This document shows, in pieces, positions 3,705 through 56,557 of a stretch of 64,000 nt of DNA. Location: positions 3,224,001 through 3,288,000 of the forward strand of contig OZ316776.1 of the NCBI GenBank assembly GCA_973851085.1. The letters are read 5' to 3'. Positions within the stretch are counted from its first letter, which is position 1, and the number at the start of each line of letters is the position of its first letter. Under the pieces are notes generated by a model. It was not told the origin of the DNA. It did no database searches and worked only from the letters and a program-made list of their open reading frames with translations. Source of the DNA: Ptychomitrium polyphyllum. Taxonomy: Eukaryota. The position numbers and the translations under genes were made by a program.

Positions 3705-3761
3705 CTCCGCACTCACAGCTCCTCCGGGCTCGTCCTCTCTCCTACAACACTGAACGCGAGT

Positions 3762-4180
3762 GAGAAGCTGTCGTGTCTGTCTGCAAAGAAGCTCGCTTGT
3801 CCACTTCATTTGATAACCTCCTGTGTATCATCATAGTATTTACCGAGTATAACAAGGGTATAATCATCAGTATCGATCGTATATAACCTAGATATCACCC
3901 GAGTACGTCCCCTACCCCACCACAACGACGAAGCCGAGCTTCTCCTCTCCTCGATAACGGGAATTCATTGTCCACTTCACATGATACCCGCTTAGTTATC
4001 ACAAGTGTATTGCAAGGTGAAAGCGAGTATAACAAACTCATCTCATATGTATCACTTGGATATCACCTCTACACACTGTACATCAAGAAGCCCAGCTTCT
4101 GGTCTCTCCTGTCACGAAGTAACCTTGTCCATAACTGATACCCGCTTTAGTACTACTATAGTATCACGCGGGTATTAAAG
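3762..4180. repeat. Three degenerate ~160-bp tandem units upstream of DUS2
   Basis: Shared blocks GAAGC..AGCTTCT / TTGTCCA(C/T) / TGATA(A/C)C recur near 3797, 3968 and 4125, each followed by phased GTAT tetramers. Confidence 0.7.
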
Positions 4181-5087
4181 CAGTGGCACATGTGCGTTTA
4201 AACTAGACATTATTTATTAAAAATTCACAATAAACTGCCCTCCTCCCTCTTTCCTTCGGATCTAAAAGTCGTAATTATGCTTAAAACCAAGAATATCAGC
4301 ATAAGTTAGAATTTTTGGAATCTTGAAAGGTCATCAATAGTGTCTCTTGTAGCGTAAAGGTGTCATCATTGTGTTAATACTTCTTGGCGGTTCAAAGGAA
4401 GAAAAACTTGAAATTAGGACTTTGTCGTGTGGACATCATTCGGAAGAGAAAACGTATGAGTGATGCACTAAAGAGTAACGGATGTACACCCAAAACCGTC
4501 ACTGGACCTACAGCCATAATCTACTAAAGTATACGTTTCATTTCATGGAATCTTCATAAACGTAGGTAATGTTAAATCTGTGTATAGTGAATCAATACTG
4601 TTGTATATAGTGGCTGTTAGTCACTGGGTTTAGAACCCATATTTTCTTCACTATACGTAGATTTTGTAAAATGAAATATACGTGAGCGCATGAGAATGTC
4701 AGTGAAGATTTGGGTACTGTGAGAATTATACGTATGCATCCTTTACGTTGCTGGATTCGCATTTCCGTATGCATTATCGTTTTGGAGAGTCGATGTTATT
4801 TAGTCATTTTCCAAATGGCGCATGAAAAATGCGATTTTATTTAGTGAAAGAGCAGAATAATCGAAAGAATGAGATGTGTCTAATTACACTAGAGTACTTA
4901 TAAGGTTCAGTCTACCACTGTCATCGTGCTGCGAACGGAATCCGAAGGCTGAGTCTTGTGCATGTTTCACTATTGTTCTAGCCATGAAGACCTTCCTACC
5001 CACGCCCAAGTGATCACTCCCTACTTTCCAAAACTGATGTAGTCAGCTAGAATGAATGTATGTTCACCAACTACGGGTTGATTGTGT

Positions 5088-7132
5088 TCAGATGAGCGCG
5101 ATGGAGTAGCCATCCGGATGCCGTTGGCGCCACCTCCAAGCGTCGGATAGGCTCTCTCTCAAGTCGAAGTGTTGCGCCGACCAGTTCAGTTCGCGTTGGA
5201 TCTTGGACGGATCGCTGTAAACTTCGGCGTAGTCTCCAGGTCGCCGGTCGAGGATCGTCACAGTGACGTTCACGCCTGTTGCGTACTTGCATGCTTCCAC
5301 GAATTCCTTCACAGAACTCCCTGTACCACAAGCAGACAGAGATGTTCGACTGTTAATTCAGAGACTCTCTCTCGGAGTTTTATGAACATGCATGCCGAAA
5401 TGAAGTAGAAGAAGGGCAGGTGGTAGGTGGATGGCTTGTACCTTTGCCAGTGCCGACGTTGTAAATAGAGACCTTCCCTCTCTCCGCCTTATTCATGGCC
5501 TTAACGTGAGCATCCACTAGATCTGTAACATGGATGTAATCACGAATGCATGTGCCATCTGAAGTGTTGTAGTCTTGTCCCCTCACCTAGCAGATACATA
5601 CACATGAGAAGATTCAGGACAACAAAATCTCTGTTAACACCTGGATTTCTCCACAATTTGCCCCTTCTGTACTTGTGTCTGAAAGTTGGCGATAGACCTA
5701 AAACATTTGAACACAATACAGCGCAAAAGGGTAGTATATACAAAGTGGTGTTGAATGCCCTGTGCGGATACTCCGTAGCAACTTCTGGAGAACAAACCTG
5801 TATTCCAGGGATGATCCCCGTTGCGGCGTCGAAACAAGCTCCGGAGATGCGCGCATGCTTGCGGAGCTCCGGTCGTGGTGCTTCACCTAGCCTGCCCTCT
5901 GGATCTGAACCGATGACATTGAAGTATCTGCACGCAAGGCATTTAATTTGTCAGGAACGTCATTTATTGGTACAGGCTGCTCTCTGGCCCGATCGGGTGA
6001 GAAAAGCGTTTGCTATTATGCTTCGCAGGATGCAAAAGACAGCTCACAAAACAACTTAAAGATACAATGCATCGTGAAGGTGGACCAGAGCAGTACCTCA
6101 AGATCATCACAGAAAAATCTGCTGTTCTTGCGAAGTCCTTGATCAAATCTTCCGACATCTTCTTTGCCTTTCCATAGGGGTTAATTGGTACCTGTTCCAT
6201 CGGCAATCAGCCATGGCGTTTTAAGGGTTTACACTACTTGGACTGCGACTTTCACGACGAAAAACAGCGACACACATTCGAAACGGATCAGAGTAAAATA
6301 CCTGGGGCGTGTCTTCAGTAATAGGCATCTGCTCAGGCTCCCCATACGTCGCGCAAGTGCTCGAGTAGATGAGCTTCTTCACTCCGTGCGTCTTCATGGC
6401 TTCCAAGACTGTCAAAGTATTAAACGTGATATTGTGGTAATACCGCAATGGATCCGCCATACTCTCGCTCACGTAAGCAATAGCTGCAAAGTGCATCACT
6501 GCATCGATGGCATTCCGTGCAAAAATCTCGTTCACGCGCTTGCTGTCACCGAGGTCGCCATAAAGGAACTGCAACCTGCCTGGCTCAGGAAACAACGCTT
6601 GCAATTGCTCCACCGCTCCTATGTTTCCGCGTGAAAGATTATCCTGCATTTCCCCGCAAAAGTTTAAAACATCTATCAAAGGGCACGAAAGTAAAGGTCT
6701 TACCTCATACAACGTGGTTGTTCTTTCTCCGCGGTTATAGCAAGAAACTTGGAACAAGGACGTAGTTAAGAGACATACAACGACGGTAACGCGGTGGCCG
6801 TCTTCAAGCAGGCGCAACGCGGCATGAGAGCCAATGAACCCGGCCCCTCCCGTCACCAGAACATGGATCACTTCTCTCTCGTGCATTGCAAACTGCACAC
6901 AGATCACAATTGTGAAGTCAAGCCACAGTCTGTAACCCTTGAAGATTCGCCGTTACCAGTGCAAAGAAGCATACTGGGTTTATCTTATCTGGGTACCTGG
7001 AGTAAGAGAAACTCAGAGCTATACCTTGTTGGGACCAGCAAGAGTACCCGAACGGCGTAAGGCACTCATGCAAAAGGCGGTGAGAAACACTGCCAGCACC
7101 ACCTTGCCAACGAAGTACAACCGAGGCTGCAT
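5088..7132 (-). CDS. UXE: UDP-D-xylose/UDP-L-arabinose 4-epimerase (MUR4/UXE family), type II membrane SDR
   Basis: Exons 7132-7025, 6892-6779, 6643-6302, 6191-6097, 5927-5798, 5586-5442, 5320-5088 (GT-AG). Motifs [65 protein letters not shown]-terminal TM segment [13 protein letters not shown]. True start uncertain; further 5' exons may exist up to ~8480. Confidence 0.93.
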
Positions 7133-9001
7133 ACTTGAGCAATCGAAACCTACAAAAAAAACACGTTTCCACGCGCAAGGTAAGTCGCCACTCCCATCCT
7201 TCCTTTAAGACCCGTGACAAACCTTCAGAGGGAGGCAATCATCGTCCTTCAAGCTGAAGCAACAGCGATCAAAACCTCTGCGCACCTTATAGCCTCTCCA
7301 ATTCCGTTTATTTGCGAGCCACTTCGCAAGTCAGTAGTCTCAAGGAAACTACCGTACCGAAAAGGACAATATCGTCCTTCGTTAAAATCTGTAACTAGAC
7401 ACGCTACCTGGGAAATTGAGGTTCAAAATTGTGAGTAGAGACACGTGTGTGTGCACGTCGAAGTTCGTAACTCTACCGATCACAAACAAGATCAGTGCCG
7501 GGTTCCCACGACCTTTCCGGCTATACGTACTCAAAACGCGATCCAGAATTCACTACCATTAAAGACTATTTCGCGCATCCTGAAAAACAAATTTAAAAAA
7601 TTGCATTCTGCTTCTGCAATCAAGAAAAGCTAAGGGAACTGCGCAAAGCTCGCCAAAACCACAGAAACGCAGCCTACTATGTTTCTCATAAACCCCTGTT
7701 CACCAACTCTGTTCCTCCGCTGTGAATGTAGAATGCACAGAAAAACAATCACCACTCTAAACAACACACGCGAAAGCACGCATTGCTTTGAAAACAAGGT
7801 TGTGGAGCATCTGAACACGAATCCCCTGCGCCCAACCACCACAGAAAGAGAGAGATACACATACAAAAAACTACAGGCAAGAAGCTACCTCCAAAAGTGT
7901 AGGTCCGCGAAAGCCTTGGACTTCGACGACGGAAAATAGGCGACGAAACGCCCGAAGGCAGCGCCGATCCCAAGCTCCCCATCACCACCACCCAGCCCCG
8001 TCAACAACCCCACCTTCTCCCACCTATCGCTCAAGCTTTTCCCGAGGCGCTATCACCAAGCTTCCATCACCAACACCAACACCAACGACAACAACAGCAA
8101 CGAGACTGTGAAGCCCTCTTCTCTTCCAAGTTTCTCCCCTCCTATCCTCCTCCTCGTCTTCCCAAACTCACACCCTGATACCTCTGAAAAAAACCAACAC
8201 CGCCTTGGAAACAACGCCCGGGGAATCCTGTTTGCAAATGAGCTTCACCAAAGGGAACAACAATAGCAGCAACAGCAACGTCAGTCTAAATCTCTCTGCA
8301 TCTGATGCTCTCCCATCAAAATGCAGGCTTCTCTCCCTCCCGCTGGAAGTCCCCAAAGAGCGGCAACAAAACTGCCGCCTTGAGTGAGCTGCCCCAGATG
8401 GTAGCGCCTCACTCGCACATCCGACACGGCCCTCCAAGCTGTCTCCTTTCCTAGAGCGAGTAGGGGAATACTCTCCCTCTCTCTCTCTCTACTTTCCTCT
8501 CACTTGTGCAGTAAAAGCAGCAAGCCGTCATCTTTTTATGCCTTCGCTTCATCCCCAATCGCGCCTACACGTAACGGCGGTCGGCGAGCCATGTGCATGT
8601 TGCAACCAGTCACTGGAACCTCAACCCGGCGCTGGCGCTGACAGTCAATAGAACAGTCGCACTAGTCCCAACGTGGCAGCTTGTCCACTTGGTGTGATAC
8701 CCGCCGGTATCGGCGGAGCAGGTCAGTATCCAGACATCGTACGTCGAGTAGCAAGGATTCGAACCGTGGTTCGATTTTTGGGGAGCGAAGGAGGGTGGCA
8801 GCGAATGATTGGCGGAAAAGGATCGGCACGTGAGGGCTGGCAAGAGAGTAAGAGGGCGGATGTAATTGCTGATTGGCAGGGGGCGCAATGCTTTCAGGTA
8901 AATGGTAGGATGGCGACGTAACATACTATATTACGTGGCCACATATATTCTTATATTCTTTTATGTTGTGATACACCATCCGTACGTATGTATTTGTTCT
9001 G

Positions 9002-9060
9002 TATTATTATTATTCTTATTATTATTCTTATTATTATTATTATTATTATTATATATTATT
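9002..9060. repeat. (TTA)n microsatellite
   Basis: Imperfect run of TTA/ATT units read directly. Confidence 0.9.
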
Positions 9061-11412
9061 TCCTAATAATATAAAGAAGGAAATTGTTAGGCAAAACTTA
9101 GTCTTTATAATAAATCTTTTATGCTATTGTGCTTTTTTAATGATGTTAGACAATTCTTTAGAGTTGCTTTTGGTGATAGTGTTTTGACTCCCGTATCCAA
9201 CTAGCTTTTATAGGATTTCTATTTGATGTTAGAACATGACAAGTTTCTAAATTGATGTAGTTACATGACTATTATTTTAATTCACATCATTTACAACAAG
9301 TTGACTATGAGATTGATTGAAATTATATGTGTGATCAAAAATTTTTGTGCCTCACCTTATTTATGTTGTTACGATTTGGAACATGATGTTTTTATATTAA
9401 AAAAAAATTTATGGCTTTGAAGGATTAGAAACAAAGGCTTATTACTACATGTTTTCGAAGCTTTTGATAAATTGTTGATTGTAGCCTTTGTCAATGCCGT
9501 CCTTACACCTTTTTATAATGTATTTTAAAACAAAAACATTAAGAATAAATGATTTGGTGTTGTTAAATTGTTTTCTAAAAAATATAATTATGAAGTTGAA
9601 TTTTAGTAGTTGTACATTCTATAGAAAAAAACTTATGAATTGTATCAATATTACATTAGAAGATTATAACATTTTATAACATTGAAATTATAATGCTTAG
9701 TTTTCTTGTGGTTTTGAAAATAGTTTTTAATATTCATAATAACGAAAAAATTATAACCTTGAAAAAAAAATCTTAGCTAAAGATTGATTAAAAAATCATG
9801 AAATTTATTAAAGCTTCAAATCATTCTTATAACTAGTTTGATAAAATTTGTAATACAGTTTTTTCTTCAAAATATACTATATTTAAGGCACGTTTAGCAT
9901 TAAAACTTTAAGTTTGGCAATGGGCTTCCAAACACAATGATTGAAATTAAAATATTCATTGTAAAACTTCTTAAAGAATTTTTGGAACTAGAAATTGACA
10001 TCTTCAATTATTTGACAAAGAAATTAATTTTAAAAGTACTAAACAATGAACAAATTAATTATTAGAGGAATTTTTAACTTTAAGTTGTAGATTATATCAA
10101 ATGTAGAAAGCTTAGGCTTATAATGGTTTAAAGCATAATTCATTATAATAACTATTTTGTTTTAATGGTATTCTAAAATAATGTTTTTCATTTTTATAAA
10201 ATCCAAAAGGCAATTTTTTTATTCTTTTGGATGCAATATAAATTTTATATTTTTCTCTATCAATACTTTATATTTGCATTTAAATGACGTCAGTTAATAT
10301 TGTTAAAATACAGTCCAATTGATTACAATGTTGTATGTTCAATAACTTATTATAAAATGGATAAAATCTTGCAATTTAACTAATGATATTTAATAAGAAA
10401 AAAACACATATGCAATTGATGGTGGTGTCCTATTTTATGGTCATTTTATAGGAAGATAAAATTTGCAATTGTGTCAAAAAGAAATATTGTGCATAAATTT
10501 TATCTTATCTTTGTAATTTTACTCTGCATAAAATTCTTATGCATATAAAAAATGATTTTTCCTTAAGATACATACATTTTATTGAGTATTTATATACAAA
10601 AAAATAATAATAATTCTTTTAAAGTTGTAGTAAATGAATATAACTTATGCCCGCAAGACATAGAGTAAAAATGCAAAAACATATTTTTTATGATGAAAAG
10701 TAGGCCTAAGTTGATTGATCTACATAGGGACCAAATTTTAATAGCAAAAGAATTGCATTTGGAATATATATTTATAATTATTTATCATTAAAATGGATGT
10801 TCAAGAGTTTTGCTTAATATCTTATGCTAAAATATTTTTACAGTTTTACAAAGATTTCTCTTAATACTCTTTAAAATCCAAAAGTGGTTTTTAAAAATTT
10901 TAGATTCATTTTTATAAAAAAATTAAACACTTCTTCAACACATATAATAGTTCATCTTCATACATTTTAGTAAAATTACTTCTAATGACTTAAGTAGATG
11001 TACCTTATACTATCTTATATTCAAAAGCTTCAGTTATAAATCAATATTGAACATATATTCGATATTCATGTTCAGAAAAAATCATAGATTTTAAAATATT
11101 CTTAATGGCATGAATACAAACAGAAATTTAGCTTTTCATAAAATTGTGCATGATTAAAGGTTTTTTATGATTGCATGCAATTACAAATCTTTACATATCT
11201 AAATAGAAATGGACACTTTCCATAATTTATGCATGATATCTTGAAGCATTTAAAATTCTAAAATCTGCATGCAGAAACAACCAATTTTGATTTTTATGTG
11301 CAAAACAATATTTTACATTCTAATATTCTATTAAACGAATTTAATTTTAGGAACTCAAAAGATGGACAAAATAAAAATGGATGCCTTTATAAATTTTTTT
11401 AACATCAAAATT

Positions 11413-11531
11413 GTATATGTGTATAAATATACACACACATATCTATATATATATATATATATATATAATCATACACATACATACACATACATACACATAT
11501 ATTTATGTATGTATACATATACATACATATA
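11413..11531. repeat. Compound (AT)n/(AC)n/(ACAT)n microsatellite
   Basis: Read directly inside an AT-rich intergenic block. Confidence 0.9.
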
Positions 11532-14503
11532 ATAGGTAGTTATAATTGATTTTTATAGGATATAAATTCTACATGCTTATGAATATTATGTATTTTAAAG
11601 TTAGACAAAATAATTTATTCTATTCCCTACTTTGTTGTATTTTTTTATAAAGTATTTTAGTTTTGTAATTTATTCCAGATTTTGCTTCGAAAAATGCATT
11701 GCAGATACAAATTAAAGCACTTAAGTATATAAGGAAAAAGAAAATCTCTTAAAATTATCAAATCATATTCTATTTCAAAATTCTTATCATTTTTAAGCTA
11801 CCATATGTCTGTAATTTGAAAAAACCAATCTTTTAAGATTTATAAATGTATCAAGCGGGTGCATTTGTTTTAAAACTTGTTCTTTTCACAATATCATATA
11901 AATGAAAAGCTGAAAGATAAATTACCAAAAAAATACCATTAGATTGTCAATTCAATAATCCATATCCATTACTAAAAGAAACGTGCTAATTCTGTCATCT
12001 TCTTCATGTAAATTATCAAAAACACCACTTTTTTGTCTTTTATGATACAAAGGATGAACAATTCCTATGAGTTTGTAATTAAATCTTGGCATGCTGTGCC
12101 CTTCAATACCAATGCACCAAGAGTGTAAAAAAACTTACACATGACTTCCCATAAAATTAAATCTCTAATTTGGATTTTTGCCAAACAAAGAGAGTCACCA
12201 CCTCATTTTGAAAATAGTGTGAAGGATCATGCTAATCTTCCAAGATATTGGGAAGCATATTTGACTTTACAATGGAGTAGTCTCTAGAAATTATTGCCTT
12301 TCGCATAAACTCAACTTTCAAAAATTTAATTATTTTTATCCAGAGCTTTATTCCTGTTTAATCTCCACTACATAGCATCACCAAACAATGGAAGGAGCTA
12401 CGCTTTGTAATAGAATATTATGATTGTTCTAATAAGTGGAGAAAAAACTACTCAAGATAGCAAGGGTTTACCTCTTACAATATCTTGTGAAAAACACTTG
12501 ACCTTGAAGCACATACAATACATTCTGGAACCTTCAATATTTTGAAAAAAACCCACCTTCCAAACAGGGATTGTAAATTGAGTCAAAACTGACATCCAAA
12601 ATCCTACAACCCTCATGCACAACTGGTAGTTACTGGTGAAGAATTATATGCAATGCTGCAATAATACGGGTGTGCTTCAAAGCAACCACTAGGAGGTCAA
12701 CACTCATGCATCCCATACTGTAATCTTTATTGTCTATGAATTTTACCACATGCACATCTACATCCACATTACTGTGTTAAAAGACATATATCCACCATAG
12801 TTAGTTGCATATATCACAATGATCTAGTTCTTTATTGCACAACTAGTTCACTCTTTCTGCTTCCACATATTGGTGAGTGGCAAATTATCAGGAATGCCTA
12901 CCTTGAGAGGGTTTCAGAATAAACATCCAGCCTCAGCTGACTGTAGTGCATCAGAGATTAGAGAGATGCTTTGAGAGTTGTACAACTTGAATTATTGGAA
13001 ACTGGACTCCAGTGAAGGCATTGGACTGCACTGTTTTGAATTGGCTTATTGCATGACCACTTTTGTCTTTGGCAATGTAATTGCCATATTGGATGTTGCA
13101 CAGTACGTTTGAACAATTCTACCAAGTCTGGATACACATGAACAACGTATTGCTACTGAAGCTTTGCCGAACTTAAATGGCATGCCTTTCCTTTCCGTTG
13201 TCCAGAAGACATTGAGACGGTGACTTGCTTGATAGGCTCCCAAGTCAGTTTCATGACAAGTACAATCTAGCAACACTTAGTGAAATAATCCACTTCCAAG
13301 TTGGTAGAGCTGAGCTGAAAGGACATCCGCCTCATATGTGAAACATGTACATAATTTCGAGTATCCCATTCACATTTATCAACTCTACATTCTTGTGTGC
13401 AATTGGATGAAATCTATTATGCCATAGGTAGTAAGTTAAATACATGTTATCTAGTTATAGCCAAAAACATTTTTAACATGCTAGGTAGAACTAGCAATAG
13501 ACGCTAGGTTGATGCAACTACAATCTAAAGTTATTCTCATGTAGGACTGGAGCAGATCTTTGCAGGTTTTTATACTAGATTCTAAATCTACTGTATTTCA
13601 AAGGCAAAGATGGATCAAAATCATGGTTGCTTTCAGGCGGTTCTCCCAAGGGGCATCATAGAACATGCAAGCTTTAGTTGCATGCAAATGTGTCATATAA
13701 TTGGGGTTGTCCTATTATGAAGTGTCATAATAAGGGGGTTAGAGACTTTAGAGTGTATCTGGCACTGAAAAGAGGAGTATACTGTATCAGGGCCATCTGG
13801 GCAGGCCATTTGAGCCTCTCCCTGTGAATGCCCATTTCCCAAGTACTGGAGTTCTTTATGAGCCCCAAATTAAGCACACTGTGCACATCACACGGACTCA
13901 TGTTGCTGTGAGCAGTGTTCACATGCATCGCACCCGTCCATGTTCTCTGGATCTTGACATATGGCAATATCCGGGTGCCTCCACAGAGACCAGGAGATGG
14001 GCTCCTAACTTGATGATTGTTCTCAGAGACAGGACTGAGACAAAGGACATCTACGAGTAGGGCGTGTCATGCGCTCCTTTCACAGTTTTGAGAATTCAGA
14101 GATATTCACTGGGGGAGTCATAATGTTCCAGATGTTTATGCATGTCTGTAGGTTTCAAAGGAGGTTTCAGTATTGAATGCTCACTGTTACGTAATACATT
14201 ATATTATGGACCCTTGCACATGCAAAACTTTGACCTCTACATCAGTTGTAATTTGGGACCTGCTTCCAGTGTGATATTAAATTTGTCTATATCTCACCAT
14301 GTAAAAATAATTTCATTTCTTGAAGAAGTGTGCATATTTATTCATGAAATGTACAAACCTCCCTTCCATTTCCTGTAGTATGCATCAGCAGTGATATATG
14401 CTACACCTGTCTTGCTTTACATAGTAGATTCACTTGTGCCATTCTTAAACCTCTGCCATGTAGAATCAGAATCCAAGGCAATTCAAGGAAATATCTTTAC
14501 AAG

Positions 14504-14587
14504 ACGAGTGCCATTTCAGAATGTCTCGTTCATAAACCATTTGGTCTCTTCTTTAATGAACGAGTGCCATTTCAGAATGTCTCGTTC
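14504..14587. repeat. 28-bp direct repeat, two copies, with internal inverted symmetry
   Basis: ACGAGTGCCATTTCAGAATGTCTCGTTC at 14504-14531 and 14560-14587. Confidence 0.85.
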
Positions 14588-15084
14588 TATGCTGTGATCT
14601 CACTTTGAGAAGCCCCGAACCTTTAAACCTAAACCAGTGGAATTTTGAATGCCATAAACCATCATAACTCCCACGTTTGTAGCTTTAAGACCTTCGTTGT
14701 AGGACCGCAAGTATCCTGTAGTAAATGCTACAGTATCTATGAAACTATATTCCGCATGTAGGGATTTCGTGCCAATCTAAAAAGAGATTCAAGACCCTTT
14801 CCTCGAAGGATACCGTCGGCCCACTGTCAACCGAAATGTAGCAAAGCATTCTTCTTTAAGAACCTGTTTGCATTTCCAGACAGAACATGCGACACAATGG
14901 CAAGACTGTCACGAAGCTATCCAGCCTCATAGAAGGATAACAATGGTGCCGCTAGGTCACTGCAATAACTACCACCGGGCAACACTAGCTCCTAAGACGC
15001 GGTTCAGAATCGATGGCATCTTACTAATAATCTTACCACTAAGTCAAAGGGCTGCAGAAGGTCATGTTGGGTACAGTTTATTGG

Positions 15085-18000
15085 TTAATCAACTGGCATT
15101 TCATTGTCTTGAGCAGGTGCCTTCTCATCCACACTAGTCACCTTTGTAGTACTTACAGTTAATGTTGAAGCTGCTGTAACAACAACTTCGACTTTTTGTG
15201 TAGACGCTGGTGAGCTCTTTGTTTGAGTAGAGGCTGAATCATTGTCTTGCACACTAGCCTTGTTTTCTTGGGTTACAGTTCGTGAAGGTGGGTCAGGAGG
15301 CTGGATAACTTGATCTGGATAAGCGGCTTTATATCGTGCACGCAACCCTTCATCCACAAGGCGAACTCCATTTAGCTGATTTCCAAGCGACATCCACCTG
15401 CGTACAAGCACAATACCCATCTTAGCAAACTAGAATGATATGACACAAAGTGCCTAGATGGTATGAAATAATCCTGAACTCCTGCAGGCCTGTTATCTGC
15501 AATCTAGTTCTTATGATAATTGCAATGGAGAAACATATAATCACTCTTAAATCTAGCAGTCTATATGACCTCCTTCATGGCATATGACAAGAAGGCAAAA
15601 AGCGGTGCTTAAGTAATAGTATACACAAGAAACCTAAGATATATGCAACATATATACCCTGCATGTGTGTTGTGCATTCGAGCAAACAACTCCAGCTTTC
15701 GAGTTCTTGGGCTTATTCGCTCCAATAAAGGGTACATCTGCAGGCAGCAGCAGACCTTTCTTAGAACATAATGAAATTGTAGGATTCACATATCAAGTGG
15801 GAGTGAGGAATCAAATATGTATGTCCAAGAATAATCCTTCATAATATCCAAGTATATAAAATTTTCAAATCCAACTTTAGATTTGTAGAGGTACATATCC
15901 ATACAATTCTAAATGTATGCAATATTCTAAATATACAGATAGATATACACATCACATACGGCATCCATCACACTTTAAAACGGATGACTGTTGAAAGAAG
16001 AATTAGTTCAAAGAGCCTATATGAGCCAGAATATAAATAAGTCCATAAGTATTAAGCAAATGCATTCTTCTCAAGGAAGACCAGAACCATACTGTATAAA
16101 ATTTAGGACACTAAGTGCTTAGGTTCTGTATTTAAATCGCCAAAGAAAGCAGAAAATTAACATCGAAGCTATACCTCATCAGGCTTCCGGCTTGTTTCTC
16201 GAACTTCTGCAACAATGACATCTGTGTCAATATTGCGGTTGACATCAGGGTGGCCTTTTATACCCACTAGGCAGTGCTCTTTGCTATGATTTAGCCAATG
16301 ACCTGTTCTCCCTGTTCGGATGATTCGCTGCAGCTGGTTGGTTTTCACCCAGATGATTTCTTCTACCCTCTTATAGCCCCATAACTCCAGGCTGATTGCA
16401 CAATTTACCGAATGGATAATATTAGAAGTGAACGCACAACGTTAAACCCACGGTTATGTTTTAAAGATGCACGAAACAGATTAGGAAGCCTGATATGCAC
16501 AATCCCTTAACGCATGAAGTCAGATTCGATTGATACATGCTCGAAGCATGCCTGCTCTTTCTGATATATACCAGTTCAGTTATAAGAAATGTCTATTAGG
16601 TGAAGAGAATTACCATTCTCGCCCAAGTTCCATAGCACGACCAGTAACCCAAAGGAATATAAGTCCATCTGTTTGCAATGCTGGTACATTCAAGTTACGC
16701 ATCTCATCGTCAGCCATAGTCCCATACGGTAACTCCATATGAATGTCCCATGGAGGGTCTGCCATAATAACTCCAAACTGTCCCAATACATCCATCTTGA
16801 AATTACGTATATCACATTGTACCCACTGAGGCTCCCCAAGTTCTGCATCTGAGCAATACTCTGCACGCTGAGGTCTGGATCCTGGCCTCTGATTAGGTGG
16901 TATGCCCGGAGTCATCATCAGATCTGGAACATCAGGAATGGGATCCAACTCATAGTGCACATACTTACATGTCTGCATCCATCAAACACATTTTGTATAA
17001 GAATCACAAGGCCATTATTAAGAGAGATAGACAAAACAGTACGCAACTTTATAGGTCAAGAGTAAATTGAATAGGAAATACATAAACTTAACAGGCTCTG
17101 GTGGCACCCAGAGTTAGCAGTCCAACCTCCGCCTACACTTCATCGACCTTTAGCACAAGGTGAAAAGGAGAAAACGAGAAAAATCGGTCAAGGAGATGGC
17201 CCAGTAAAGCAAGAAGGCGCACCTTCATGTGACGGCAAGTGTCCAGAAATGAGCAGTCTCCAAGATTTGAATCCGTGTGTGGAGCAATAATGCGGCGAAA
17301 ATGCATCTGATTTGGGATTTCACATGATGAATAAACATATAAGAAAAACACGAGTTCATAGATAACATGATAAAAAAATGATGTCCCTCACTGCTACATG
17401 TACCTTATTCAGCGGTACCTCAACAAGGGGCTAAACTTGGCCAGCTCTTACACAAACTCAGTGGTACAAATGCAGATGAGAAATGATACATACATACAGA
17501 ACTTCCAATTAATCACAAAAGCACTACTTCTGGAGTCAAAGTTTAGCTGACTTGTTACCTATCCATCATAGAAAAGGGTAAGTAGTGAATCCAGAGATTT
17601 ACATGTTCTTAAGAGGCAATTGGTAACTAACCAATAAACTCACACTAGGAAGTAGAGAAAAGCTATTGCGAATTTTCACCTTCTCACAAGCAATGAAATG
17701 GTTGCGTTGATGTCGACAGTCCTCCTTTGTGAGGGCTACACAGTACTCCTTCAACGCAGAACCCCCCTTTGTCTTGAACTGTTTAAACGACCAAGATCCA
17801 AAATACTCGGATATAAGCAGGCATGTAAAATGATACAATAAAATCAAGCACCCCCACTAGGCCTGCACACCGTCTTAAAATCCATCAATCCAAATAAAAT
17901 AAAATCAATTTCATGCCTGAGTTATTGGACAGCACTAACCTTCGCAGCATTTGCTGTTTCTTTCGCAGTAGGGCGATGCAATAGCTCTAAGAGCTCCTCA

Positions 18001-20153
18001 GCTGTCTTGAACTGCTGTTGCTCCTTGAATGACTTCTTATGTAATAATGCATCAATGTCCTCCTCTTCTGCGGGACCTCGACCCTTCCCACCCATGCCAC
18101 CATGGAGGCCCGGTCCATGCGGGGGCCTTGGAAAGGGTCCACCAAAACCACCCCCAAGCCCTGGACCTCCTCCAGGCATACCCAGCATGCCCATACCCCG
18201 AGGTCCGTTTCGTGGAACCATGAGAGGGGGGCCTCCTCCACTTGGAAACATGGGGCCACCAGGAGGAGGGCCTCCTTGATGATGATCCCACACATCAGGC
18301 CTTGTAGGCAGACCATAAGGTGCTCCATTTGGCTCCATCACGCCTCTATGGTGGTGCTCTCCACCCATTCGTGGAGGTGGAGGCAAGCAACCGCCAGGAA
18401 GCTCCTTCATCAACCGTCCTCTATCAAAGTTCAGAACCAAAACGTGCAGTCCTCCATACCTATAGTCCTCTATCTCCTCAATCTGTAGACCTCCCGCCTC
18501 TGTCATTGCCCGCAGGGCGTAATCCACAGCAGTAATACCACCTGCCTCCCCACCACCTCCCACTTCATGTAATGCATCCATCTCAATAGGATTCATTTCT
18601 TTGGCAAGCATTCGGTGGTGGATGTTCACAGAATCTATGGGCAAAGCTGTCGTGTGTGACAGCAAGCATCCAGCAACCATCGCCTTCACAACTCCTAGTG
18701 CATTCATAGGCCCAGCTCCCCGGCCACCGTCCCAACCACCACCCCCCCAACTGTCAGCCCCCCATCCCTCACCCACAGACCCATCACCTCCACCACCTCC
18801 ACCACCTCCACCACCTCCACCACCTCCACCCCAAGAGTCTCCTGGCAATCTTGGTCCGCCCATGTCCACATCCACGTTCGCCTTAAATGGAGCACCAAGA
18901 ATACCCCTTTGCTCAACAGAGCCATTAGACAATCCTGAAAAGCTCGGTCCATGACCCGTATACCTAGAACCTGTTGCAGGTTCTCTATGATCTCCAGCAC
19001 TAAATGTATGAACACTATCAGATCTTTTCTGAAGATCCTCCCGATTCTCAATTGTCTTATTCTTTTTTATCTCCAGTCCGCCAAACGCCGACGCAACCTG
19101 CATTACCAAGGATATGATCAACTTCAGTTTCAAAGCAATAATATAAGACAACACTCACTCCCGTCAAAGATTTCACAGGCATGTGTCAACAGCACTAGAA
19201 GCGAGAGGACATATGCGAAAAGTGATATCCCCTTCTCAATAAAAGAAAAGGGAGACAATGAGGCAATTTTTGAGCGAGTGCCTTAGCTCAGTAAGTTCAA
19301 ATAACGGGATGTTTCTGGGACCGTTCTTTTGCAAAGTTTCAACTGCTTCAGGATTAAATTGAAGAAAGTCCACAGCTTCTCTAGGGATTTTCTCAAGTTA
19401 TGCCACTTCTTCAAAGACTAGCTGTTGTACACAACGTCTCTAATCCTGAGGCTAAAATTGTTGTGAACAAAAAGCAAAGCATCATCTCTGTCTGCTTCCA
19501 AGGGTAGACCAAAGGAAGTAATTTAGCACTTTCTTTGTTATACAGTATCCCAGACTGAGGATAAGCTCGCACAGCCTCCAGTTTACCTGTCCTAAACCTA
19601 GATGTTTCAAAATCCTCAGTTACAGCACATTCAAACATACAAGGGCAATAAGTAAGAAAATTCCAACTTCGCTTTTGCGAACGTCATCCTCAATTAAGAA
19701 ATGTCGACTAAAACCATTTAGTTCAAGGAATCTTCCTGAACCTTGGACACTACACTACAGGTCTCCATCAGATATCAGAGAAAATTAACCAGAAAACCCA
19801 CAACATAACATCCGAGAAAACCGTCACCACATCAATAAGAAGCACATTCACCATCGCCAATAAAAAACCTAAGAAATCCGACTCATACCCTAAACCCCGC
19901 AACAGCTCAACTGGTCTCACTACCACAGCACAACTGACACAAAAACAGCAGCAGGAAGCCAAGGAAGTCGATCAGTCACCTTAAGCGAAAGCTCGACTGC
20001 AGCCTCGAGATCCGGCACTGTGACAGCCAAGCTCCGCGACTGCTCCAGTCCAATTCGCCGCAGGTGTTCCACTCTGCCTTGGACCTGGCGCAGCTGCTCC
20101 CGCAGCGCCACAATCTCGTCCTCCCCATTCTCCATCGCCACCGGCACGTCCAT
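15085..20153 (-). CDS. MTA: mRNA N6-adenosine methyltransferase catalytic subunit (MT-A70, METTL3 orthologue)
   Basis: Exons 20153-19980, 19097-17940, 17778-17680, 17306-17223, 16972-16614, 16391-16175, 15737-15658, 15397-15085 join in frame. CCCH-type zinc fingers ([33 protein letters not shown]), catalytic [43 protein letters not shown]. Confidence 0.97.
18781..18830. repeat. (CCACCTCCA)n coding repeat giving a poly-Gly tract in MTA
   Basis: 9-bp periodic repeat translating to ~15 consecutive Gly on the minus strand. Confidence 0.9.
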
Positions 20154-21978
20154 GGCTCCACCTCCTCTACCCTAACCCTAATCCTCACATCCTCCTCAAA
20201 GCTCGCCCCAAGACACCCTCCTCCCGCGCTTCTCTCTCCCACATTCTTTGCAGCCCCGCATTCCCTCAACTGATTGCATTCTCCGCATGAAGTTCCTGAA
20301 ACAGTCGTCCTCTCATCGCCAAAACCAAAACCCAATTCCTATCTCCAGGCCAATTCTGAAAACAATTCGTCCCAAGTCAATACCCGTGACGTGACGGTTT
20401 TTCGATTACGAGGAAATAACAAAGTCCGAGCTTTTCGATTCCCTGCATCCCTGTTCACATACTCGCACGTGGGTTGATCGATTGCCTCTCACCGACCTGT
20501 CTAAGAGGGAAAAAAGGTTATCTGTATGCACCTCGGATTGACCATCTGATGCAGGAATGGTTTGTGATGCGGATCGAAGTAGAATATTCACGTCAGAACC
20601 ATTCTGCCAGGAAAACATTTCTTCTACTCCGAAGGAGATAACTCTTCCGTATCCATGAAGCGATGTGATGGTCTTCACCGCCAATGCAAAGCTACATGTT
20701 GATCGATCCGAAGAGCATGTGTGTTGTGAGAAAGAATTTCTGCACATGTACATCGGTCCACAAAGGAGTCTCTGTCTGAAGGAGTTTGCTGCGTCCACCT
20801 TGAGAGTGATAACCAGATGAAACTCGTATGATACTGGTGTGATACGCTATTTATACCGATGTGGAACTGTTCCTGTTTGGTACATATGCAGGTATCACGA
20901 GGTTAGGGACAAGAATAGGGAGTCGATCAGTGCTAAAGGATCATACCAAGAACCGTTACTGTACGCGAAACTGACATCATTTACCGACAACACACATTTC
21001 TCTTCATGAAACCTACAACATTCCTAAAAGTGTGGAACAAAATATTCCACACCAGTCTGGTCATGCACGAGCTTCACCAAGAATAGTCCTCTTCAGCACT
21101 CATCAGAATGATCCTCTTTTCAATGGCTTTCACTCCCTCGTAGTTAAAGTGCTGTTTTGAAAGGGCCGCCTCTACACTAGTGAGGGACTTTCTTGCTTAT
21201 TAGACATTGCAAGAATTGTTGATTTTGGGCGTGAGGTGCTTGTTATTGCTGCGTCCATTGCTAATAACAGATGTGTACAGCATCGGGAGTGGCTTGTGTA
21301 GATAGTGGATTAAAGGAACATTGCCGTTCACTCCGTCTCTCCCACTGTCACATGTTGGTAGGAGATGAGCGATGAACTTGCAGAGTTGATCGAACTACGG
21401 TACTAGGCTAACATCTGGTGTTAGTCCAAATACCTAATTTTTGAACTAACACCAGCTGAGAAGAATACCCTAAGTATGAACTCGTTATGGGCCTGCAGAA
21501 GTTTAAGTCTGGACAACAAACGTGCATCAAGACGCCCGGCATAAAATGAAAAGGAAGTGTAGAAGAAGCAGAGGAATTAGAGACCCGAATCAACAAAGCC
21601 TTGCACCGGAGAGAACCACAATCGATATATTTCTACCTGAGAAAACGTCACTGCCCAAGAGAAACAGAGGCAGAACTAACAGTGAAGATTCAATCAACAA
21701 ACTGCCCTTCTAGATCACTTCTTCTAATCAAATCAATATTCAAATCAAATAAATTTATATAAATTCCCTGATAGCAAAGGCAGTCAGATAATAACCTTCA
21801 CACACTCGATCATCTGCGGCAAATCATTAAACCCTTAGTTAACAAAAAAGAACATTAAATCAAGATTTGCGATTACCGGAACTGTACAGATTGACTCCCC
21901 TGACTACATACTCGGCACTTACAGAAAATCCTTCGAACTACATATACCTCGCCATCCATACTGTATGATTACGTGCTC

Positions 21979-23749: not shown

Positions 23750-26700
23750 TGCTGGTTATGCCCCGCTCCGCATTCTTCCACCTGGACAATGGGCTGCAGA
23801 TCGGATTCAGAAAGCCATCACCAAGAGATTCAACAACATGAAAGCAGACGGAACACAATGCAGATCGGAATGTCAAGATTGCCGCTTCTTCGCCTTAAGA
23901 GTAGTGGGTCATAAATATGGAAAACGACTTTTTCGATTCCACACTAAGAATGGGCTTCTCTCCCACAGTCCCACAAATGCGAAAGTCTACAGAAGACCAT
24001 CTAACGATGGTTACCTTCTGCAACACCCGGATTAGGGCAAATGAGTTTGATCACCAAGGGCACTCTGAAAGCAACGGAGATTAACCTAGCGCGGGAGAAC
24101 AATACGCGGTGCCTGAACGAGATCCAACCAGAATAATTAAGATCTGGTCTACGTTCACGAAACCCCTGCCCGCGTATTCACAATGCTCACTTCCGCTCCG
24201 AATCAGAAAAACACCAGATCCGAGCGAAACCGAGACTCAATGTGAGCTCGCGCACCCAACGAAAACAAACGCAAACCTCGAGTCCAACCCAGAAACTCCC
24301 AGTTCGTTCTATAACCACACACTCCCACACACCCTGCACTCCATCACGCAACATAGCCTCACATCACCGCACCCAAAGTTAGAGAAGAGTACAACCAGCA
24401 AGCCCTCACATCGCGCACCACCACCAGATTCTCTCACATGAGCATCACATACTACCATAGCTGCGACGTGAAGCACATCGCTACACCACCATCACACAAT
24501 CATAGCACAGCCATCACAGTCGCCATGACTGCAGTCCGAAATGCTGCCAGATTCACTGCAAACCCAACCACCAGTCCCAAGTGCCCATCCACAAGCGCCA
24601 TAACCTGGATCGATCACCCGCCTCCTAGACAAGTATAAAACTGAAGTCAAAGGCCTAACCTTCAAGTCCACCTACAGTGACTGGATATGTACGAAGCTTG
24701 ACTGCACCACCGTGCATGCGACGAAGTTCACTGGTTGACGGCGTCTCTTTCTTCCTGTCTTGCTTCCTTGGTTGCAGTCAAGCTACAAACACTGAGTTTA
24801 GGTAGCATTTTTGTAACGTTTTTGTAGCACCACACATGCAGGCTCATTGGAGAACACAGTTACGGTTCTTCAGTGCCTGCTTGCCGGAGTGTTTTTGTGG
24901 AGATGCTACAACAAATCATTAGGATGCCATTGGGTTCACGTTGACCCAGCAACTGAGGATCTGGATTTCTGGTCTGATGATGGTGTGTGTACCTTGTTGA
25001 TTTTCAAGTGGGGGTTTTCATGTGGAAAGTTTTGATAAGATGAGGTATTGTTGGTGTCTTGTTTTCGTAGGGGAAGATATGCAGTTTGTGTAATGGTTTT
25101 TGTTGAGATGATATTTATGGTTGTACATTTTTATTGTTGCTTTGAAGAAAAGGTAATGTTTCTTTTATATTTGGTATGAACCTAAGTTGAGTTTTTTAGT
25201 GTCTGGATGTTTGCTAGGCATGGATGGTCCACTAGTGTATAGATTGTTGGATGAACGAATTTATGGATTTGAAAGCATTTGAATGGAAAAAGGAGATGGA
25301 GAAGTAGATTTGGACGGTTTTGGATAGAAAGACAAATAAACCATGATAAACATGGATGGAAATTGGTTGTAAACAATGAACAATTTGAAAACACCAAAAT
25401 AAACATTTTTGTTTGATTTCAAACTAATGTTTGATTATAAAAGGCCATATTCCATTTGTATACAAAAAATTACAATAATTATGACTAAAATATTACTATT
25501 TGAACACTCATTGAATCACTCTTACTTGCACCTTAGTTTCTGAGTACTATTGCCTTGTACTTTTATACCAATAGTCTCATTTGGATTTATGCTTAAATTC
25601 AATTCTACACAAGTATCTTTAAGTGTGTTTTATTGGATAAATCATTAGAAGAGGCTACATTTGCTTCTATTTCTTTTCAATCATTGCATCTAATTGATCT
25701 TATGAGCCTTTTCTTTGTAAGATTTATAAAACCTATATTATCTAATAAGAGTCTTATTCCTTCAAAGCATGCTATTTTGCAAATTAAAGTGCTTGAATGA
25801 TTTTCCTTGCTTGAATGTAAAAATTTCCATACCATCTACCAACTGTCAATTGTAAAGGCAAATCCATATTGGCTTAGGAGGTAGCAACAATAGTGGAGTT
25901 AATTTTCTTCTTCATACTTGAGGAAATTATGTCATAGTAGCTTTTATAATGCCATGATTAGCCATTGGAAATTGTAATGTCTTAAACAAAGGTTGCAGTT
26001 AGGATCTAACATATGTTTGAATAACACAATATTTGTAAAACATCACATTTCATATGAAAATGTCGTAAATGATGTTTACACAAAATATCACTTATGGCCA
26101 ACTTAAAAAACATTCTTTATAGAAAAGCCTAGGAGTAAATTGATGATTCATTCATTAAAAACAAGAAAAAAATATTATATACAAATATGGCATTTTTATA
26201 AACACAATGTTAAATGGCATCTTCTACAAATTAAATTTGATGTATAATATTCAATGCACAAGTGAATAATAACATAATGTTATTATAAAGGTTAAATTGT
26301 ATGTGATTCAAACATGGTAAAAGCATATGTGATTCTAGTGACATCAACACAATACTAAATTCTAATGAGGATCTTGTTCAAACTTTCACTTGAAGATAAA
26401 CTATTTGTCAAATAAATTTTTTTTCTCTAGAAATTGGCTGAAATTGGCAAATCTTACTTCAAAACATTCTTAAGAGGTGAATTCAATAAAGAACCAAGGT
26501 TGCTATGCGTTCCTCTTTAAAATATTTAAACAAGATATTTATTAAGTCTAGACTTTTTAAGAAATTTTGAAGTACGAAATTTAAGAAGAAACACCCATTC
26601 CAAAAAGGAGCTGAAGTTCCAAATCTTGAGCACCATCATTGTTAGCTGAATGACAATGATAGCCAAAATTTGAAACCATCGCTCCATTGGGATGGAGGCA

Positions 26701-30003: not shown

Positions 30004-30082
30004 CATGGTGACGCAAAATCACACATTGTAAACATTTTAAAGAATTTTGTATGTTTACAATGTGTGATTTTGCGTCACCATG
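30004..30082. repeat. Perfect 32-bp inverted repeat with 15-nt spacer
   Basis: CATGGTGACGCAAAATCACACATTGTAAACAT (30004-30035) and its exact reverse complement (30051-30082). Confidence 0.92.
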
Positions 30083-34614: not shown

Positions 34615-34970
34615 TCCTCTCCTCTCCTCTTCCAACACACCGACCCAACTACACAACCCCCCCAGACAGTAGTCAAAGGTGCAACCTTTGAGCAAAAACC
34701 GATCACAACATGACTATGTCGATATCCCGCTCCCTCCTCGTCCTCTTCAAGCAAAACCACCTACCTCCACAACCTGCACCAAAAAGTAGCCCCAAAGCAC
34801 AACCTTTGGGCCAAAACCGATCACAACACGACCATGATCACGACCTCTCTTCCTCCTCCACCTCTTCCAACAAACCGCCCAACTCCACAACCTGCAACAA
34901 CAAAAAAAGGTAGTAGCCCCAAACTGCAACCTTTGCGTCGAAACCGATCACAGCATGACCATGTCGTCGA
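34615..34970. repeat. ~3 degenerate ~120-bp tandem units upstream of the HicB-like gene
   Basis: CAACCTTTG....AAACCGATCACA.CA.GAC.ATG starts at 34682, 34800 and 34927; CCTCTT..A.CAAA..CC.ACAACC blocks also recur. Confidence 0.85.
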
Positions 34971-49617: not shown

Positions 49618-51533
49618 CAACCAGGGTGTACCCTGCACTCAAGGTCTGATTGCGTGAGTGGAAAATAAAATTAGTAAAATCTGGCATAACAATCAACATC
49701 TGATTGCCAGAATTCTGATTCAGTTCCTTATGAAAAAATACATGAAAGCACCAGATTTTGATGAAAACAGTATAGCATTATGCATGAACAATATTTTTCT
49801 ATTCAAAACATCAAAAAATGTAGATTTATGTGATTACAATGTAAGTTTTGTATATTTCCAATGTAATACTGTGAAATGATATGAAAAAAGAGATTATACA
49901 CCAAATATAAAGGTGAAGATTTTAAAAGAATTCTTGTCAGTTTAGCTTGTGTGTATTTTATAACGTTTTATGTTTATATGTCCACTGATCAAGCTTGTCT
50001 TTTCTGTGTGCAGCATCTTTGAAGCTTTTTTGTTTTATTGTAATCAATAACCACAATTCAATTATTAGCATTTTTGTTACAGTTGTAGATTTAAATTTTT
50101 GCATGTGTTTGGTGGATTCTTTTGCAAGTCTAATAACACTTGGTTTATATGGACTTAAATTGTAACTTTTTGAATATTAATTTAAGAATATAATATAAAA
50201 AAATGAAAGTATATTTTAAAGTATACTTGAAAGTTTTTAAATTGTTCTATATACTTTTGGAATAAACTAATGATAACAAGTATTATTAAAAAATCAAGAA
50301 AATCAAGCAAACATATATGCGTTTAATACCCAAAATTTTAATAATTAAAAGCCTTATTTTCTAAGATGTTTTATTAATGATAGATTTTTGACTTTAGCAT
50401 TTTCAGATTAAAAAATATAAATTTATTAAACACACTATGATCATTGTATAATGTTGAAAACGTTAAAATAAAACATTAAAATTTTATTTTTGCAATGAAT
50501 TATTGATTAGGAATAAATGGGCTAAAAACAGTTAATATATCAATCATATTTCACATAATAGTTTGTAAAAGAACCTAATAATTTTAGCTCAACGCTTAAA
50601 CATCATGACAAAAAATACAAGGATAATATTATATTTTCTTTCCAAGTGCTAAATTTTTTTCTATTATATACAATAGAATATTTAGACCAAATTCTATATT
50701 ACCATAGTGGTGTAAGACAATGCTATGATAAAAGATGCTATGTTGACTATAAACTTGTTGTAATATTTAATGAAGTAGACAAGTGATCCAATTGTTTTGA
50801 AAATATGTAGTTCAATCAAATGCACAACACTTTACAAAATTGAAGTTTACGCTCCAATCAAAAAGAAAAACATAACAAAGCAGGAAGTAACATCTTCAGT
50901 CAGATTTTTGTTAAAAAATGTGTTGAGTTTACAAAGAACTTTACCAAACCAGCAGTATTTCCAAAGCTTGGCCATACCGTAGAATACAACAATGTGAGTG
51001 TACGGTACGTGTGTGTAGCAAATGAAATGCCCACCTTCCACGCCACTTTCTCAAGCACCCAGCCAGGATCATTCCTTCAGCGGCGCGAGAAAAGCGCCTA
51101 CTCCACAAATCTACGCGTTCCCCACACCCCATGTAGCCCCTGCGAAGATATCCATCTCGCCTGAACAAATCGTCGTTCCGTCCACACGTCTCTCCATGCA
51201 ATTAACGCCACGAGCGTTTTCCCACTGCCAAGCATGCACGTGAACTTTTTAATCATGACACTCCCCCAGTACCACCAGTGTATTACGGACGTATCGTCGG
51301 TTGTCGACAGTGTATTTATCTGACATGCAGAGGTATCAACTGGTTCAGTTGATGTGGATACACGGGTATTCTCGTAGTATCGTCCTACTGCAGGGCCTTG
51401 TGTCTAGAGGGAGGAGAATCTGACGGTGGCTAAGCTGCTCGTAATTTTCGATCAGGTTCGGTTTTCGGAGGCAGTAGCGCAGGAGGCTTTGATGTGGAGT
51501 TTGCAACTGGACCTGCAACGTTGTGGGAGGAGA

Positions 51534-55114: not shown

Positions 55115-56557
55115 GTTAATGTCCATGGCCTCTTCTGAAGATCAAGGAGATCGTATGTTATGTTGTAGAATTAGTACTACTGGAGATTATTTTGAACTGT
55201 GTTGAGTTGTGAATATTTGCATATAGTGCTTGAGTTTCTAAGTATGAAACTTAGTGGATAGATACCGTAGGATGGAACGAGACTCATCACTCTAATCACC
55301 AGTAACCATGTTTGCCTGATTACTGTAAATACAGTTTGACGTGAAATACTGTTAGACAGTTTGGTGAGTATGTAAAGTCACCACTTGCAGGTGAGGATTA
55401 GTTTGGACTTGTAATGGACTTTAAGCTCGTAGCATGAAGAGGAAACTTTTGGCTTTAATTGCCGACCTGATCCCTCAAAGTGATTGAAACCAACAGGCAA
55501 ATGTGTTTAGACAGTGAAGCTCCTACATAACCAGTAGCGCAGATTATAAATGGCTTGTATGTTTCTGAACCTCAAACATCATGCTTGGATGGTGATATTG
55601 CGCAGCTGCATTCTCTGCAGAATTTCATCTTTGAGATTATACGGCTGTACGGGAACAGAGTTTCCGATGGTACTAGCTTGTTCATTGTTCACTAAAGCAT
55701 TTTGTGATCGTTTCGCGGATTACAGTACTGCCGAGGCATGCGTCCAACCTGGTCAGTTCCACAACTCAAAATATGGAAAAAAACTTAATACAGCACATCC
55801 GCATTCCAGCCCCCAATTGACCAGCCACCAAGTGTCACCCATTGATTGCATATTTTCAACCCAACCCACCACTCCGCCACTTGTCACCCCCAGCGCTGCT
55901 CTGACTTAGTCGCCCATTTCTATCGCTCCTGCCACCCTGGTACTCTCACAAGCTAATCGTGGCCCTTCCTGCAAATTAATCATCGCCTTGCGCCCTCCAT
56001 CGCTCCTCATTTGAAGCCAAAATGTAGCCAAAATGTAGCCAAAAGTTTAGCAAGAATTTGCTACGAATAATCACAAAAAATCCTGAGAAAATCCTTACAG
56101 AAAACGTACGTTATACCTAGTTATTATCTCAGTATCATCCTGACCTATCGTCTAGTATGACATAGGTATTAAATGAGTTAAAAGGAAAGGCATGGCTACA
56201 ATACAGAGATGGCGATTACTACCCTCATCGTTCATCGGTCCCGATCACTTCTGATCAGTGATCGCCATACCGCCTCGCTGATTGATCAGAAAACGGATCC
56301 CGGATGAGCATTACTTTAAGAATACCAGACCTGCACGATCGGAACATTCCATTGCCACCTGGGCGCAGTCCATCGATCACTCATCTCTATTAGAACGCCC
56401 CCATTCGACGACATCTACTCATTCTGCTTGTCTGTAGTGACTCATCTAGCATCTCGAGTCTCAATCGATCAGCTCTATCCAGTTGCTAGTTGCTAGCTAG
56501 ATTGTGTAGAGCTCGTGAGTACTTTAATACTAGCTAGTGAGGTTGATCAATCGAGCA

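What the first reader, a model, noticed from the sequence alone, without database searches (positions are those of the whole stretch)
3797..20815. Bipartite motif GTCCAC-N6-TGATA(C/A)C shared by promoters of unrelated genes
Seen: TTGTCCAC-ttcatt-TGATAAC (3797), TTGTCCAC-ttcaca-TGATACCCGC (3968), TTGTCCAT-aac-TGATACCCGC (4125) upstream of DUS2; TTGTCCAC-ttggtg-TGATACCCGC (8681) upstream of UXE; GTCCAC-N8-TGATAAC (20793) upstream of MTA. Weaker matches are GTCCAC-N6-TGA (24666) and the reverse-orientation GGTTCA-N6-GTGGAT (51342) upstream of the + strand TolB-like gene. All have the same orientation relative to the downstream gene. Inference: an oriented composite cis-element, or a domesticated small repeat, marking promoters in this lineage. 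I do not recognise it as a catalogued plant element.
Basis: partly seen in the sequence, partly recalled or inferred. Interest (0 to 1): 0.72.

Follow-up and report, generated by a model that had tools for sequence, protein, structure and literature searches.

The report
Helically phased moss promoter arrays
In this moss and two close relatives, a short DNA word is repeated about once per helical turn (every 11 bases), and in the stretch examined these arrays sit upstream of five unrelated genes, most likely as landing strips for a still unidentified protein that would bind in a row and help keep these promoters open.

Summary
Same-strand cores pile up at 11 and 22 bp (13 and 12 pairs; maximum 8 in 40 shuffles). 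A motif-blind scan finds the MTA array above its null. Arrays lie upstream of DUS2 (three old tandem copies, so one locus), MTA (strong), TolB-like and WCOR413 (moderate) and UXE (weak). Non-orthologous contigs of this moss and two relatives continue the register in unaligned sequence (8 of 12 slots). Linkers are nearly random; no shared flanks, TIRs or TSDs were found. Best explanation: docking platforms for a cooperatively binding protein, one subunit per turn, capped by a second site facing the gene (inferred, 0.6). A transposon-end origin is plausible but untested. No binder, start site, chromatin or expression data were available, and no genome-wide count was possible. Seven literature searches aimed at the element found no description.

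The parts
3797..3910 (-). DUS2 promoter array, copy 1: cap at 3797-3804, one reversed unit at 3811, then 8 phased units (cores 3825, 3836, 3847, 3858, 3870, 3881, 3892, 3903); 93 bp upstream of the ATG at 3704
3968..4070 (-). DUS2 promoter array, copy 2 (cap 3968; reversed unit 3982; cores 3996, 4007, 4018, 4027, 4049, 4060); cap kept in the colinear contig of organism C, array interior diverged (84 vs 108 nt)
4125..4190 (-). DUS2 promoter array, copy 3 (cap with 3-nt spacer; cores 4150, 4161, 4172, 4183)
8681..8755 (-). UXE/epimerase promoter: cap plus inverted pair TGATAC-N6-GTATCG, weak continuation (8726, 8737, 8748); 1.55 kb from the ATG at 7132, about 150 bp beyond the end (8536) of a piece laid from organism C
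20791..20900 (-). MTA promoter array: cap with 8-nt spacer, six reversed units at an exact 11-bp period (20807-20867), one forward unit at 20892; 640 bp upstream of the ATG at 20153
24666..24720 (-). Weak cap-like site upstream of the DUF7796 gene; no scoring array; doubtful member
51266..51385 (+). TolB-like (PD40) promoter array (cores 51269, 51280, 51291, 51312, 51333, 51366, 51377); cap-like GTGGAT inside it at 51354; 150 bp upstream of the ATG at 51534
56108..56173 (+).

Best explanation
These are promoter arrays of an RGTATHRY unit repeated every 11 bp, most likely docking platforms on which an unidentified DNA-binding protein would bind cooperatively, one subunit per helical turn, to help keep nearby promoters open. 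Shown: the unit, the 11-bp period, near-random linkers, an inverted TGATAC-N4..8-GTATCA junction at the DUS2, UXE and WCOR413 arrays, a GTGGAC cap on the gene-facing end at DUS2, UXE and MTA, location upstream of 5 of 12 recognisable gene starts, and the same register at other loci in three mosses. Inferred: a head-to-tail oligomer reads the cores from one face of the helix; the inverted pair is a dimer site that nucleates it; the cap is a second half-site or second factor that sets polarity and the boundary toward the start site; the result is a nucleosome-poor, unmethylated, active promoter. The protein may be transposase-derived, as TnpA and HIM-17 are (analogy only).
For: Spacing of same-strand cores: 13 pairs at 11 bp and 12 at 22 bp against means of 3.8 and 3.6 (max 8 in 40 shuffles); no other distance from 7 to 46 exceeds its shuffles. 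Chain scores at period 11: 12.7, 10.9, 6.4, 6.0, 5.5 against a maximum of 5.4 in 12 shuffles. A motif-blind scan ranks MTA (47.3) third, behind two simple tandem repeats and above the null maximum of 42.7; DUS copy 1 (42.6) sits at the null maximum. Leave-one-gene-out matrices peak at period 11 for DUS (30.4), MTA (29.3), TolB (12.8) and WCOR (12.7). Held-out test: in the unaligned ends of 5 non-orthologous contigs from organisms A, B and C, 8 of 12 predicted in-phase slots carry GTATCA with <=1 mismatch (read by eye; background 0.0048, binomial p about 1e-16). Information sits in the core (1.1-1.7 bits at 4 positions) and not in the linker (<0.1 bit at 2 positions). Linker identity is 0.33 within arrays and 0.28 between genes. 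Arrays keep CpG (o/e 1.09) while four AT-rich intergenic blocks have 0.10-0.35. None of the 22 pattern hits from the viral, metagenome and prokaryote collections forms an array (max 11.1, against 16.5-40.8 for six window arrays).
Against: No binder, footprint, start site, methylation or expression was observed. The UXE array is no better than one unit when held out (11.1, flat across periods), and TolB and WCOR do not beat a coding-region background hit at 6424 (13.1-14.0). Core-versus-linker constraint in the organism B ortholog is weak and depends on the definition: 3/61 vs 13/81 (p = 0.03) or 6/72 vs 10/70 (p = 0.20); the TGATAC next to the copy-2 cap is changed there (3985). Array interiors turn over between close relatives. 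Units for the matrix were picked by eye from the core, which inflates core information. CpG retention extends through the promoter flanks and is not specific to arrays. 7 of 12 gene starts have no array.
Confidence: 0.6

Rival explanations
1. The arrays are remnants of the subterminal transposase-binding repeats of a DNA transposon or MITE (CACTA-, hAT- or Mutator-like), or of an LTR promoter, left near genes with little or no host function.
For: A cap plus direct and inverted short repeats resembles transposon ends. Clustered motifs are the TnpA and VANC targets. ppdb reports many P. patens genes driven by LTR-located promoters (PMC3965062).
Against: No TIR/TSD pair at MTA, UXE or TolB; the 6-9-nt inverted matches at DUS and WCOR lack a consistent TSD. 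Flanks are unrelated: 18 of 20 comparisons fall within the shuffle range, and 2 score 28 against null maxima of 23-24. No array scores in the AT-rich intergenic blocks, and the arrays are not CpG-depleted.
Confidence: 0.17
2. The arrays act through DNA shape: phased TA/AT steps bend DNA or position or exclude a nucleosome, with no sequence-specific reader.
For: The period is close to one helical turn; array length is 65-120 bp; periodic dinucleotides position nucleosomes in C. elegans germline promoters (PMC9757741).
Against: A polar 6-8-base word with G and C positions and a separate cap is conserved, more than a dinucleotide signal needs. The period is 11, not about 10; nucleosomal signals are recalled to be 10.0-10.4 bp.
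Confidence: 0.12
3. They are decayed 11-bp minisatellites made by local slippage and kept by chance.
For: A small excess of linker identity within arrays (0.33 vs 0.28, permutation p = 0.03); tandem duplication of promoter pieces is common here.
Against: TRF does not call them. The same core and period recur at unrelated loci in three organisms while linkers are nearly random. All 5 loci are upstream of genes.
Confidence: 0.07
4. GTCCAC is a variant snRNA-type upstream sequence element driving divergent small RNAs.
For: GTCCAC resembles the land-plant USE (RTCCCAC..., recalled); USE-TATA spacings are given in PMC8287931.
Against: No Rfam match in the window at gathering score; the cap lacks one C of the USE core; no TATA box at 23-34 bp is visible in the sequence; this reading does not explain the arrays.
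Confidence: 0.04

Closest known systems
VANC21/VANC6 target arrays in Arabidopsis VANDAL transposons (PMC5735166; passages read)
   Same: Short motifs arrayed densely in one orientation in non-coding DNA. Some units here fit YAGTATTAY loosely, and the cap shares TTGTCC with the VANC6 motif AGTTGTCC.
   Different: VANC targets lie inside the transposon. The words spacing, periodic and interval do not occur in that paper's main text. Here the arrays are at host genes, have a fixed 11-bp period and a separate cap, and no VANC-like gene was looked for in this moss.
Spm/CACTA TnpA and AtMu1 transposase motif clusters (bioRxiv 10.64898/2026.08.24.746577; abstract and parts 1-2 of 3 of the main text read)
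   Same: Clustered cognate motifs that direct activation and hypomethylation and can drive a host gene.
   Different: Different motif (CCVTCGCAAA), at element termini; TnpA-like proteins are said to appear restricted to flowering plants; no CACTA ends were found here.
MITE-derived m1m2 promoters read by HIM-17 in Caenorhabditis (PMC9757741; abstract and passages read)
   Same: An oriented motif pair shared by promoters of unrelated genes in one lineage.
   Different: One pair, not a 4-9-unit phased array; its MITE origin, binder and function are shown there and none is shown here.
LEAFY SAM-oligomer site clusters (PMC4844672; abstract and passages read)
   Same: A plant factor whose head-to-tail oligomer favours one site spacing and reaches weak sites and closed chromatin.
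   Different: 19-bp sites 1 bp apart (20-bp step), mostly pairs; different sequence.
DnaA low-affinity site arrays in E. coli oriC (recalled; paper not held)
   Same: Oppositely oriented runs of weak sites at about 11-bp steps, nucleated from an end site.
   Different: A bacterial replication origin; architectural analogy only.

Membership tests
MITE / CACTA subterminal repeat | Terminal inverted repeats with a target-site duplication | tested here: not met
   none at UXE, MTA or TolB; short inverted matches at DUS and WCOR without a consistent TSD
MITE / CACTA subterminal repeat | Copies share sequence along the whole element | tested here: not met
   linker identity between genes 0.28; flanks within the shuffle range in 18 of 20 comparisons
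MITE / CACTA subterminal repeat | An autonomous or high-copy family elsewhere in the genome | not testable with these tools
   no genome held
VANC target array | Dense same-orientation motif array | tested here: met
VANC target array | Located inside a VANDAL element with a cognate VANC gene | tested here: not met
   arrays lie next to host genes; no transposase family among the 32 window ORFs scanned; the rest of the genome was not seen
Homotypic, helically phased transcription-factor site cluster | Repeated short word at a fixed spacing | tested here: met
Homotypic, helically phased transcription-factor site cluster | Upstream-of-gene position | tested here: met
   5 of 5 loci within 1.6 kb of an ATG, p = 0.0015; start sites themselves unknown
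Homotypic, helically phased transcription-factor site cluster | Purifying selection on cores | tested here: inconclusive
   p = 0.03 or 0.20 depending on the core definition
Homotypic, helically phased transcription-factor site cluster | Cooperative binding by a protein and an effect on transcription | not testable with these tools
   needs footprinting and reporter assays
Type 3 (USE/TATA) snRNA promoter | USE, TATA at 23-34 bp and an snRNA gene | tested here: not met
   sequence
Minisatellite | Head-to-tail copies alike over the whole unit | tested here: not met

The most novel reading that the evidence does not exclude
Mosses have an undescribed promoter class, present at a large share of genes (5 of 12 here), in which a lineage-specific, possibly transposase-derived protein polymerises along 11-bp-phased GTATCA arrays up to a polar GTGGAC cap. 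This would build unmethylated, nucleosome-poor islands beside AT-rich, CpG-depleted DNA: a host-wide anti-silencing or promoter-defining filament.
Probability: 0.3. Interest if true: 0.87.

Novelty: new variant of a known kind. Interest (0 to 1): 0.66.

Why it matters
Plant promoter elements are catalogued as single short words, and word counting (octamers, MEME) tends to miss a degenerate 6-mer whose signal lies in its spacing. If 11-bp-phased arrays mark many moss promoters, there is an unknown general promoter-binding factor in a major land-plant lineage. It would offer a testable answer to how moss promoters stay CpG-rich and active next to silenced DNA, and a new part for moss synthetic promoters. 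The prediction is cheap to test on existing moss genomes with CAGE, ATAC and methylome data.

Tried and rejected
No whole genome is held, so no genome-wide count. No RNA holder listed. Collection scans gave 11 viral, 6 metagenome and 5 prokaryote-genome hits; none continues as an array, and none was shown to be moss, so they served only as a negative control. None of the five window proteins looked up is in the protein collection by exact sequence. In one search, organism D had no contig laid over 3926-4367, which says nothing about absence. Rfam: 0 matches. Earlier findings: none by place, sequence or relatives; one search returned only unrelated prokaryote and phage arrays. Literature: seven searches aimed at the element or at moss promoter motifs and three for comparators listed no paper that, by title or start of abstract, describes it. 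Passages of PMC11335568, PMC12316476, PMC13516842 and PMC3965062 did not mention it. The 198 P. patens octamers of ppdb, motif logos in figures and all supplements were not seen and could hold this word; subscription papers are not in the library. Matches to recalled motifs (animal SIX GGGTATCA, TCP GTGGNCCC, EIN3, GT-2 trihelix, tRNA-iMet primer site) were considered from memory only and not adopted.
Full report
Setting. The window comes from a moss: its DUS protein is 84-85% identical to Ceratodon, 82-83% to Physcomitrium and 74% to Sphagnum proteins. No genome is held. Pfam supports the gene labels, and 12 gene starts were placed by eye and translation (the SNARE-like start near 49250 is approximate and unverified).

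Observation. All quoted strings are present. GTCCAC-N3..10-TGATA occurs 4 times against 0.25 expected. Relaxed to 2 mismatches, the N6 pattern is not enriched. The three DUS2 hits belong to three old tandem copies of one promoter unit, so the independent strong loci are DUS2, UXE and MTA, with spacers of 6, 6, 3, 6 and 8.

What is really there. Written in 11-base rows, the sequence beyond each motif shows a column of GTATCA-like words. At DUS2 copy 1 the cores start at 3825, 3836, 3847, 3858, 3870, 3881, 3892 and 3903. At MTA six reversed units run at an exact 11-bp step from 20807. Window-wide, same-strand cores (<=1 mismatch) are 11 bp apart 13 times and 22 bp apart 12 times, against means of 3.8 and 3.6 and a maximum of 8 in 40 shuffles; these are the only two of 40 distances above their shuffles. 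Chain scores favour period 11 over 9, 10, 12 and 13. A scan that knows no motif ranks the MTA array third in the window, above the null maximum of three shuffles, and DUS2 copy 1 at that maximum. With each gene held out, the matrix recovers DUS2 and MTA strongly, TolB-like and WCOR413 only at the level of the best background hit (though peaking at 11), and UXE not at all beyond one unit. The consensus of 45 hand-picked units is R-G-T-A-T-(C/T/A)-(A/G)-Y, with uninformative linkers.

Anatomy, read on the gene's strand: optional reversed units, an inverted junction, one to six GTATCA units, 6-8 bases, GTGGAC, then the gene. All 5 loci are within 1.6 kb upstream of an ATG (27% of the window, p = 0.0015), and 4 of 5 are within 700 bp. 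No TATAWA was found in the 500 bp on the gene side of any array. Seven of 12 starts have no array.

Beyond the window. Laying contigs of coded runs on 3730-4230 at 80% likeness recruited, besides the orthologs, one other contig in the same organism, one in organism B and four in organism C. Their depths and lengths differ from the DUS-bearing contigs listed, so I treat them as other loci; that table was truncated. For five of them the tool printed the unaligned 30 letters on the array side (4 loose-end rows were not shown, including those of the sixth contig). The window's register predicts 12 complete slots there, and 8 hold GTATCA with at most one mismatch (read by eye; background 0.0048, p about 1e-16, or 8e-13 with one base of slack). 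One of these ends also shows ATGGACA eight bases after the last unit, which is the cap architecture. The colinear contig of organism C keeps 3924-3991 and 4076-4125 but has 108 letters where the window has 84. In organism B, substitutions avoid cores only weakly (p = 0.03 or 0.20). The 22 pattern hits in the public collections do not extend into arrays. I could not see which genes, if any, lie beside the other-locus arrays, so the promoter association rests on this window alone.

What it is not. It is not a called tandem repeat: linkers are 33% alike within arrays and 28% between genes. It is not a recognisable MITE or transposon end, with no consistent TIR/TSD and unrelated flanks. It is not an Rfam RNA. 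The arrays keep CpG (o/e 1.09) where AT-rich intergenic blocks have lost it (0.10-0.35), but so do the surrounding promoter flanks.

Mechanism. A conserved polar core with random linkers at one helical turn is what a protein binding head-to-tail on one face of DNA would select for. The 11-bp step, slightly over 10.5, would wind the subunits slowly round the helix or fit underwound DNA (inference). The inverted pair would be a dimer site and the cap a second site giving polarity. The likely output is an open, unmethylated promoter. Plant precedents for each step exist: density-dependent binding and demethylation by VANC and TnpA, and spacing-dependent oligomer binding by LEAFY. A lineage-wide promoter motif pair read by a domesticated transposase is known in nematodes. 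None has this word or period, and no step past the sequence pattern is shown here. Confidence 0.6; transposon remnant 0.17, DNA shape 0.12, decayed minisatellite 0.07, USE variant 0.04.

Novelty and verdict. No description was found in the searches listed; figures, supplements and the ppdb moss octamer list were not seen. The element is real and larger than reported. As a kind, it is a new variant of phased homotypic site clusters, with an unknown reader and a 30% chance of being a moss-wide promoter class. Interest 0.66.

Noticed in passing
window 49496-49620: A second kind of periodic array: seven AACCGT-like words about 16-19 bp apart, upstream of a minus-strand SNARE-like gene; resembles MYB3R/MSA sites (recalled).
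   Followed up: partly
window 4474-4516: A 40-bp stretch matched by many unrelated contigs in runs X1, X4 and X6. It holds GTAACGG and CCGTCAC as an imperfect inverted pair and the same AAAACCGT word as the 49.5-kb array: possibly a second dispersed element family.
   Followed up: no
window 3930-3945 and 4086-4100: Palindrome GAAGC-N3-GCTTC in DUS2 promoter copies 2 and 3, inside the pieces that organism C keeps better than the arrays.
   Followed up: partly
window 34667-34963: Three tandem copies of a 118-bp unit just upstream of an ORF (ATG 34574) with no Pfam match; promoter duplication like that at DUS2.
   Followed up: no
window 36426-36724: MITE-like inverted repeat (69-nt arms, 75%) about 190 bp upstream of the ACBP gene.
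   Followed up: no
window 30004-30082: Perfect 32-nt inverted repeat with a 15-nt loop in AT-rich intergenic DNA.
   Followed up: no
window 41403-41547 and 63672-63822: Two inverted, 73-81% alike coding-like pieces without a Pfam match in the one ORF scanned.
   Followed up: no
window 2779-6646 against record 2 of run X1: The same run holds a second contig carrying both a DUS paralog and an epimerase paralog, the latter inverted: likely a remnant of an old genome duplication.
   Followed up: no
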